Assembly: GCF_022045235.1 (NCBI RefSeq)
Contig: NW_027266268.1
Span: 18,600,001 to 18,664,000 of the forward strand
DNA length: 64,000 nt
Direction: 5' to 3'
DNA from: Haliotis cracherodii
Lineage: Eukaryota
A program made the position numbers and the translations under genes. The first letter of the stretch is position 1, and every line of letters starts with the position of its first letter. This document shows positions 29,201-29,577 of the stretch, piece after piece. The notes below the pieces were generated by a model. That model ran no database searches, was not told the DNA's origin, and saw only the letters and a list, made by a program, of their open reading frames with translations.

Positions 29201-29577
29201 ACTGTGGCAACATCGGCAACCCCGGGGATGTGGGCCCCAATGGAACAAAAGAGATTACATGTCCTTTCCAAACATTGTACTTCAATTCACAAAATAAGAA
29301 CTACTTCAGCATTGCGTTGCCCACCGGCCGATACATTCGCATCACCAAAACGGGCGAGGGAATGATGACGTTTTGCGAGATCGAGGTTAACGCAGCTACC
29401 AACATCTTCTACAATTACTCCCCCCGCAAAGGAAGTGACAATGATGGCCTTGCTCCAGAGGGCTTGAATACGTTCAAATCCGCAGCGGAAAACATGCATT
29501 ATGTCCCAGTGACCTTACCCGTCACAGGCGTCGCCGATGGTGATCAAAGTCAGGAGACTGAAACGGAAGACGAATGA
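26289..29577 (+). CDS. Gene 3: secreted F-type lectin with acidic C-terminal tail, 251 aa. Exons 26289-26337, 28416-28670, 29126-29577
   Basis: GT-AG phase-1 introns; exons 49/255/452 nt = 756 nt, open. Signal MIARVLYFLMALGSAS; FTLD motifs LAVDGDTNG, SCFSS, NPVWYVDLG, YNRGDCCADRL, GRYIRI, TFCEIEV; AATAAA at 29670 and 29690. Confidence 0.92.
26460..27210. repeat. About 700-bp dispersed repeat, copy 2 (intron 1 of gene 3)
   Basis: Same family and orientation as 25255-25990. Confidence 0.7.
27319..27590 (-). mobile_element. tRNA-derived SINE family C
   Basis: Reverse complement of the family C consensus (gggtggcccagtcgtctaaggcgccgcgattcgctgtgc...). Confidence 0.8.
28036..28199 (-). mobile_element. 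tRNA-derived SINE family A
   Basis: Reverse complement of the family A consensus with (GAGT)n tail. Confidence 0.8.

What the first reader, a model, noticed from the sequence alone, without database searches (positions are those of the whole stretch)
29260..29345. Gene 3 preserves a non-repetitive state of the poly-Tyr loop
Seen: at the homologous position gene 1 has a short loop (C-SGTPI-GRYIR), gene 3 has C-PFQT-LYFNSQNKNYFSIALPT-GRYIRITKT, and genes 4-8 have C-PFQT-Y14-FYTVFQN-GRYIRITKT. Genes 3-8 share exon sizes 49/255 and the PFQT anchor. Inference: the locus records stepwise origin of the homopolymer (no insert, aromatic-rich insert, TAC expansion), or decay of a Tyr tract in gene 3; direction cannot be fixed from this window.
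Basis: partly seen in the sequence, partly recalled or inferred. Interest (0 to 1): 0.7.

Follow-up and report, generated by a model that had tools for sequence, protein, structure and literature searches.

The report
Abalone lectin with tyrosine-paddle hairpin
A cluster of abalone sugar-binding-type genes carries an extra loop, predicted to be a hairpin, that is 14 straight tyrosines in eight copies and a fast-changing mixed sequence in an old sister gene, which more likely lost the tyrosine run than preserves the state before it.

Summary
The loop between Cys and G-R-Y is 5 residues in gene 1, 21 in gene 3 and 25 (Y14) in genes 4-8, plus three more Y14 copies beyond the window. All have the F-type lectin fold but lack the fucose-binding His. 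Gene 3 is not shown to be a preserved intermediate. It belongs to an old sister lineage with orthologues in H. rufescens, H. rubra and H. asinina. Its loop changes faster than its domain, and the lineage has a derived 4-residue deletion elsewhere. The insert is predicted to be a beta-hairpin, and loop lengths 17/21/25 differ by whole double rungs. The Tyr tract is unchanged in length and residue in 8 of 8 copies, and both gene types are spliced in RNA contigs of relatives. Gene 3's loop codons lean towards TAC/TAT, which favours decay of an ancestral Tyr tract over stepwise gain (about 55:35, not settled; some tests were not significant). Likely function: a two-faced aromatic paddle for self-association or surface sticking (untested). 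Y14 proteins were not found in the protein collection or in the papers searched.

The parts
26289..26337 (+). Gene 3 exon 1 coding part (49 nt), hydrophobic N-terminus, likely signal peptide
28416..28670 (+). Gene 3 exon 2 (255 nt), first half of the F-type domain: AVDG cation motif, Ser in place of the fucose-binding His, NRGDCC
29126..29577 (+). Gene 3 exon 3 coding part to stop; second half of domain, insert, acidic tail; spliced to exon 2 in contigs of runs X13 and X17
29260..29328 (+). Cys147 to Gly169: 21-residue loop where ordinary F-type domains have 4-5
29269..29316 (+). Predicted beta-hairpin, strands 150-156 and 159-165, with cross-strand pairs Tyr153:Phe162 and Phe154:Tyr161 if symmetric
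29275..29304 (+). Ten-codon variable core that aligns to the Tyr tract; all ten codons have T at position 1 or A at position 2
29282..29293 (+). 12 nt left out in a contig of run X13 (organism B); gives the 4-residue-shorter loop seen in P0002
33477..35045 (-). Gene 4 (Y14): exons 35045-34997, 34702-34448, 34006-33477
33816..33857 (-). Gene 4 Tyr14 tract (10 TAC, 4 TAT)
43114..45048 (-). Gene 5 (Y14), tract 43437-43396
49792..51651 (-). Gene 6 (Y14), tract 50136-50095
55178..57017 (-). Gene 7 (Y14), tract 55543-55502
60577..62430 (-). Gene 8 (Y14), tract 60942-60901; three more copies follow beyond the window (L010, L011)
4537..10888 (+). Gene 1: divergent F-type domain (exons near 4537-4770 and 8750-8982, 5-residue loop at 8878-8892) followed by C-type lectin exons; distant short-loop relative

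Best explanation
Gene 3 and the eight Tyr14 genes are two old sister lineages of likely secreted F-type-lectin-fold proteins that share one inserted loop, predicted to be a beta-hairpin; the Tyr14 genes keep it unchanged as 14 tyrosines, while in gene 3 it is changing fast and more likely decayed from a tyrosine run than preserves a pre-repeat state. History: (1) shown: ordinary domains have a 4-5 residue linker, and the long loop occurs in one Haliotis clade. (2) Inferred: a TAC/TAT expansion created the insert on the stem of that clade. (3) Shown: the clade split into a gene 3 lineage and a Y14 lineage before H. rubra/H. asinina parted from the window's lineage. (4) Inferred: the gene 3 lineage kept the aromatic rungs at the hairpin base, replaced the rest mostly by one- or two-step changes to polar residues, and shortened it in steps of four residues. 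(5) Shown: the Y14 gene multiplied to eight copies with no change of tract length or residue. Function (inferred, untested, about 0.45 on its own): the hairpin sits at the bottom of the barrel, opposite the altered sugar pocket; in Y14 proteins tyrosines would cover both faces and act as an aromatic paddle that stacks molecules together or onto a surface, possibly fixed by oxidative Tyr cross-links, while gene 3 would be the more soluble form.
For: Tree without the loop: gene 3 + H. rufescens + H. rubra + H. asinina proteins form a clade (100/98), inside an insert clade with Y14 (100/99); the AU test rejects gene 3 + H. rufescens + Y14 without the other two species (p 0.025) (which lacked the window's gene 3 row, gave 99/97). 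AlphaFold2 on P0001: strands 150-156 and 159-165, block pLDDT 77-91; the Y14 half-domain gives the same hairpin two rungs longer, at low confidence. Loop lengths 17/21/25 keep the base pairs in register. Gene 3 loop faster than its domain in 3 of 3 comparisons from P0001 (p 0.003, 0.025, 0.004). Y14 tract: 0 residue changes, 1 synonymous change, 0 length changes in 8 copies; about 5.6 residue changes expected at the domain's synonymous rate of 0.15 per site, P(0) 0.004. Gene 3 loop codons: 12 of 20 first/second positions match TA, reached by 0 of 561 overlapping windows; 7 of 7 non-aromatic codons have T1 or A2 (p 0.001); 9 of 10 columns hold Tyr or a one-step neighbour in gene 3 or H. rubra, reached by 22 of 1261 windows and 0 of 198 equally divergent ones. 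Y14 keeps the longer last top loop of the other paralogues, the gene 3 lineage lacks 4 residues there. Both types are spliced in contigs of relatives, and a contig of organism C bridges the tract without a gap. Bottom of the barrel carries the N-/C-terminal sheet (PMC5712786 section 5); engineered Tyr ladders promote flatness and dimerisation of a single-layer sheet (PMC3196904 passage).
Against: The decay tests are post hoc and weaken with fairer nulls: p 0.023 against polar residues only, 0.07 and 0.15 for summed distance to TAC/TAT, 0.089 for differing columns only. The third-position match to the TAT interruptions is 5 of 6 for the commoner tract (p 0.17) and 6 of 6 for the rarer (p 0.02); likelihood ratio only about 3. 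The same likeness fits the reverse path, Tyr gained by point changes. Faster evolution of gene 3 depends on the outgroup: p under 0.05 with 4 of 7 outgroups for gene 3, 0 of 7 for H. rubra and 0 of 7 for H. asinina. The loop core is identical between H. rubra and H. asinina, so it is not fast everywhere (3 of 17 and 2 of 17 loop differences, p 0.057 and 0.17). No Y14 gene is known from the distant species; Y14 proteins were not returned by the protein searches even for this genome. Introns differ by 20-45% among genes 4, 5 and 11 while synonymous sites differ 3-9%, so gene conversion may also keep tracts alike; the tract's 0 changes do not exceed what the domain's own low non-synonymous rate predicts. 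The Y14 model has pLDDT near 50 in the tract. Tissue and function are unknown.
Confidence: 0.55

Rival explanations
1. Stepwise gain: a non-repetitive aromatic hairpin arose first, gene 3 and its orthologues descend from it with changes, and the Y14 lineage converted it to Tyr14 by point changes from Tyr-neighbour codons plus a four-codon TAC slip.
For: Four species share a non-repetitive loop, three at 21 residues; the 10-residue core is identical in H. rubra and H. asinina; Tyr14 is so far seen only in this genome and a close relative. Codon likeness to TAC/TAT is symmetric in direction.
Against: It needs a separate, unexplained source for a 16-residue insert that already looks like TAC/TAT; gene 3 shows derived deletions in two places and a fast loop; the Y14 domain lies closer to the duplication node in both trees.
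Confidence: 0.35
2. The Tyr run is a tolerated microsatellite in a surface loop, copied by recent tandem duplication and homogenised by gene conversion, with no function of its own; gene 3's loop is unrelated filler at the same place.
For: Genes 6-10 are young, near-identical repeats (introns 0.4-5% apart); exons look homogenised relative to introns.
Against: No length variant in 8 copies or in organism C; only a synonymous change in the tract; TAT interruptions although Tyr codons elsewhere in these genes are all TAC; shared PFQT and YF anchors and hairpin register.
Confidence: 0.1

Closest known systems
F-type lectins (fucolectins): eel agglutinin AAA (PDB 1k12), striped bass FBP32 (3cqo)
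   Same: Fold (Foldseek E 8.5e-10; VIA Z 17.4, rmsd 3.4, 154 aligned), AVDG cation motif, R-x-D-CC-xx-R, the Cys pairs, Pfam PF22633/PF00754.
   Different: Ser replaces the His of the fucose triad; a 17-25 residue insert replaces the 4-5 residue linker after the Cys124 equivalent; acidic or Pro/Gln/Glu-rich C-terminal tail.
Haliotis 'fucolectin-like' RefSeq models P0002 (H. rufescens), P0003 (H. rubra), P0026-P0028 (H. asinina)
   Same: Orthologues of gene 3: clade support 100/98, shared 4-residue deletion, shared signal-peptide type.
   Different: Loops of 17 and 21 residues with 3 of 10 core residues shared between gene 3 and H. rubra; names are automatic, no function seen in the searches.
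Tyrosine ladders: engineered OspA single-layer sheets and the modelled ice-nucleation protein dimer (PMC3196904, passages seen)
   Same: Solvent-exposed Tyr stacked across beta-strands, linked to dimerisation.
   Different: Unrelated proteins; here a natural 14-residue homopolymer predicted to fold back on itself inside a lectin domain. Analogy only.
Slippage-derived homorepeats such as polyQ/polyA (recalled general knowledge)
   Same: Single-residue run on a trinucleotide repeat with synonymous interruptions.
   Different: Aromatic, inside a folded likely secreted domain, and fixed in length; known cases are mostly in disordered regions and vary in length (recalled).

Membership tests
F-type lectin (FTL) family | F-type jelly-roll fold | tested here: met
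   Predicted model of P0001 matches 1k12, 3cqo, 2j1r first
F-type lectin (FTL) family | Cation motif h2DGx (PMC5712786, passage) | tested here: met
   LAVDGD in gene 3, LAVDGN in Y14 genes
F-type lectin (FTL) family | Fucose motif H...RXDX4(R/K): the His | tested here: not met
   Ser at the His position in gene 3, gene 4 and H. rubra; His present there in two amphibian controls
F-type lectin (FTL) family | Fucose motif: RXDX4(R/K) with vicinal cysteines | tested here: met
   NRGDCC-A-D/E-R across the exon 2/3 junction
F-type lectin (FTL) family | Cysteines of the two clamp disulfides (AAA 50-146, 108-124) | tested here: met
   All four aligned by sequence; bonds themselves not seen
F-type lectin (FTL) family | Binds fucose | not testable with these tools
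   Needs a glycan array; file as FTL-fold domain with non-canonical site, not as a fucolectin proper
Unstable microsatellite homorepeat | Pure codon run and length variation among copies | tested here: not met
   3-4 TAT among 14 codons; length 14 in 8 of 8 copies and no gap in organism C
Unstable microsatellite homorepeat | Origin by slippage | tested here: inconclusive
   Codon traces in gene 3 fit an old TAC/TAT run but also gain by point changes
Tyr/DOPA cross-linked adhesive or matrix proteins | Tyr hydroxylation or cross-linking; presence in glue, mucus or matrix | not testable with these tools
   No tissue or proteome data were available; runs are coded

The most novel reading that the evidence does not exclude
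A trinucleotide expansion created a new folded element: a 14-tyrosine beta-hairpin on the base of an F-type lectin, held at fixed length by hairpin register and used as an aromatic paddle for self-assembly or adhesion, while the sister gene records how such a homopolymer decays into an ordinary-looking hairpin, a natural case of new protein structure born from a repeat and then disguised.
Probability: 0.3. Interest if true: 0.78.

Novelty: new variant of a known kind. Interest (0 to 1): 0.5.

Why it matters
How simple repeats give rise to structured protein parts is an open question, and direct before-and-after pairs are rare. This cluster offers one: the same loop as a pure Tyr run and as three mixed versions, in a fold with solved structures, testable with a few more abalone genomes. 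The longest Tyr run in the 181 proteins fetched here was 3, and the eight Y14 proteins were not returned by the protein searches, so a conserved, spliced gene family appears to be overlooked. If the paddle function holds it is a candidate natural underwater adhesive or self-assembling module.

Tried and rejected
Homo-trimer prediction of the gene 3 domain gave 'no answer' (score 0.00): no evidence either way. No RNA holder was listed for organism A and three of its possible RNA runs held next to none of the words: not used. Gene 3 was not covered in runs X11 and X14, and contigs of X11 and X13 stop at the tract, so organism B's tract length is unknown. A direct search with gene 4 exon 3 returned 0 of 72 candidates. 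The representative search added short-loop relatives only; P0067 has two long matches to the loop pattern (21 and 23 residues, not aromatic-rich), not examined. A 15-base pattern search of the genome was too loose (384 hits against 262 control). The Atlas could not take the Y14 exon; P0001 gave only F-type clusters. The first tree left out window gene 3, P0015 and P0017 through a pattern miss; one search restored gene 3 and P0015, and left out genes 8-10, P0027, P0010, P0013, P0017 and P0019. Rejected: gene 1 as a local ancestor (different domain make-up, long branch); the H. rufescens YY as an early Tyr expansion (the 12-nt deletion itself creates the second Tyr codon in organism B's contig; one contig, depth 2.9). 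Paper searches showed no description of these genes in the listings seen; (a Y run plus Haliotis) gave 0 papers; PMC6003135 holds one unrelated mention of fucolectin in its main text, its supplements were not read and might list such peptides. Subscription papers are not covered. Three look-ups of earlier scan findings returned nothing.

Full report
Observation. The three loop states are in the sequence as described. Gene 3 is 26289-26337, 28416-28670, 29126-29577 on the plus strand; that splice gives database protein P0001 exactly, which the collection labels fucolectin-1-like, Haliotis cracherodii. Genes 4-8 lie on the minus strand with the same 49/255 exons and GT-AG introns. A search of the genome found three more Y14 copies directly beyond the window, then short-loop relatives: one with a linker like P0015 and several two-domain genes. 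The tract is TAC/TAT with the same pattern in all eight copies except the last codon.

Family. Pfam gives PF22633 and PF00754. The AlphaFold2 model of P0001 (mean pLDDT 74, pTM 0.73) matches eel agglutinin 1k12 first by Foldseek and by VIA-align. The cation motif, R-x-D-CC-xx-R and the clamp cysteines are present, but Ser stands where the fucose-binding His should be (motif from PMC5712786, passages and section 5 read). These are F-type-fold domains with a non-canonical pocket. The N-terminal exon is hydrophobic and reads like a signal peptide; no predictor was run.

Is the insert homologous? Yes. Alignment puts both between C-PFQT and YF...GRYIRITKT. Of 261 loops matched by pattern in 181 fetched proteins, 253 are 3-8 residues; six long ones are gene 3 and its orthologues and two are in one unexamined protein. 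The model shows strands at 150-156 and 159-165 with a two-residue turn. The Y14 exon 3 alone gives strands 49-57 and 60-68, the same hairpin two rungs longer, but with pLDDT about 50 there. Folding each loop symmetrically keeps the base pairs in register for 17, 21 and 25 residues; steps of four would keep the turn geometry (inference; two lengths agreeing modulo four is a 1-in-16 coincidence, so only suggestive). By alignment the insert lies between the equivalents of Cys124 and Arg131 of the eel protein; I infer from the published topology that this is the bottom of the barrel, near the N-/C-terminal sheet and opposite the sugar pocket. I did not see model coordinates.

Is gene 3 an ancestor-like relic? 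The searches returned orthologues from H. rufescens (17-residue loop), H. rubra (21) and H. asinina (three copies, 21). With the loop removed, these group with gene 3 at 100/98, and with the Y14 copies at 100/99; holding gene 3, H. rufescens and Y14 together without the other two species is rejected (p-AU 0.025). So the duplication is old and gene 3 is a sister lineage. That lineage lacks four residues in the last top loop, which Y14, gene 1 and the second domains of the two-domain genes have. Its loop differs from H. rufescens at 4 of 13 aligned residues plus a four-codon deletion, against 6 of 161 in the domain, and from H. rubra at 10 of 17 against 47 of 161. A contig of run X13 shows the 12-nt deletion at 29282. 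Between H. rubra and H. asinina the loop is steadier (3 of 17, p 0.057). Relative-rate tests favour a slower Y14 domain with 4 of 7 outgroups for gene 3 and none for the other two species.

Direction. If a Tyr run decayed, the gene 3 codons should still resemble TAC/TAT. They match at 12 of 20 first and second positions (0 of 561 overlapping windows reach this; mean 4.4), and all 7 non-aromatic codons have T first or A second (p 0.001; 0.023 against polar residues only). Summed distance tests give p 0.07 and 0.15. Nine of ten columns hold Tyr or a one-step neighbour in gene 3 or H. rubra (22 of 1261 windows; differing columns only p 0.089). The two T-ending codons of gene 3 fall on two TAT interruptions when the gap is placed mid-hairpin: 5 of 6 third positions match the commoner tract (p 0.17), 6 of 6 the rarer (p 0.02). 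These tests were chosen after seeing the data and are symmetric in direction. What tips the balance is economy (one expansion explains both the insert and its codon make-up) and the derived features of gene 3. I put decay at 0.55, stepwise gain at 0.35, neutral repeat at 0.10. Y14 orthologues of distant species would decide it; they could not be reached, because Y14 proteins were not returned even for this genome.

Is the tract real and selected? Eight copies show no residue or length change and one synonymous change; at the domain's synonymous rate about 5.6 residue changes were expected (P(0) 0.004). Gene conversion is a caveat: introns of genes 4, 5 and 11 differ 20-45% while synonymous sites differ 3-9%. 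In run X14 (organism C) a 905-nt contig bridges the tract without a gap and is spliced exactly at intron 2; the tool skips the repeat letters in its difference tables, so only the length is shown. Run X13 (organism B) has joints at both introns. Gene 3 is spliced in single low-depth contigs of X13 and X17. Two of four runs laid covered gene 3. These are relatives, not the window's organism, and the tissue is unknown.

Function. Inferred: in a 9+9 hairpin of tyrosines, side chains cover both faces, giving a flat aromatic paddle on the side away from the sugar pocket. Tyr ladders flatten and dimerise an engineered single-layer sheet (PMC3196904, passages), and F-type lectins stack tail to tail (PMC5712786, passages). 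The likeliest role is self-association or surface binding in an extracellular secretion, perhaps locked by Tyr oxidation; eight copies would supply dosage. Gene 3, with a polar tip and three N-glycosylation sequons, would be the soluble form. None of this is tested.

Novelty and verdict. No description of these genes appeared in the paper searches listed under Tried and rejected. The fold is known; the Tyr14 hairpin and its mixed-sequence sister are a new variant. Interest 0.5.

Noticed in passing
   Followed up: partly
window 9523-10888 (+): Three exons after gene 1's F-type domain match the C-type lectin part of P0015; gene 1 is an F-type plus C-type lectin that also lacks the first clamp cysteine pair.
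   Followed up: partly
genes 4, 5 and 11 (window 33477-45048; L011:2270-3815): Introns differ 20-45% while synonymous sites in the domain differ 3-9%: exon-limited homogenisation or strong synonymous constraint.
   Followed up: partly
window 47353-64000 and L010-L011: Genes 6-11 sit in a tandem unit of about 5.4 kb, 92-97% alike within the window; gene 3 faces the array tail to tail on the other strand.
   Followed up: no
L012-L018 (G000:C5 about 18.69-18.75 Mb): At least six two-domain F-type genes and one P0015-like gene follow the Y14 array; all lack the fucose His at the aligned place in the proteins checked. More F-type exons lie at C5 18.20-18.35 Mb.
   Followed up: partly
window 33859-33872 and 33797-33803 (-), gene 4: The codons for F-Q-T before the tract and F-Q-N after it form a near-identical 7-base direct repeat flanking the insert; could be a trace of how the insert arose, or chance.
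   Followed up: no
window 46430-47143 (-) and 41468-41563: Open frame with Tc1/mariner-like transposase motifs between genes 5 and 6, and a similar fragment between genes 4 and 5 (motif likeness recalled, not searched).
   Followed up: no
window 37848-38315 (+) and 22126-22380 (-): Fragments that read like a LINE endonuclease and a reverse transcriptase (likeness recalled, not searched).
   Followed up: no
window 8003-8495, 12853-13411, 14198-16420: Minisatellites of 45, 48 and 31 bases (11, 12 and 72 copies); the 31-base array produces many chance GRY matches in translation.
   Followed up: no
window 33492-33534 (-), gene 4 tail: A 15-base coding repeat (about three copies) lengthens the Glu/Pro/Gln-rich tail; tails vary among copies far more than the domain.
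   Followed up: no
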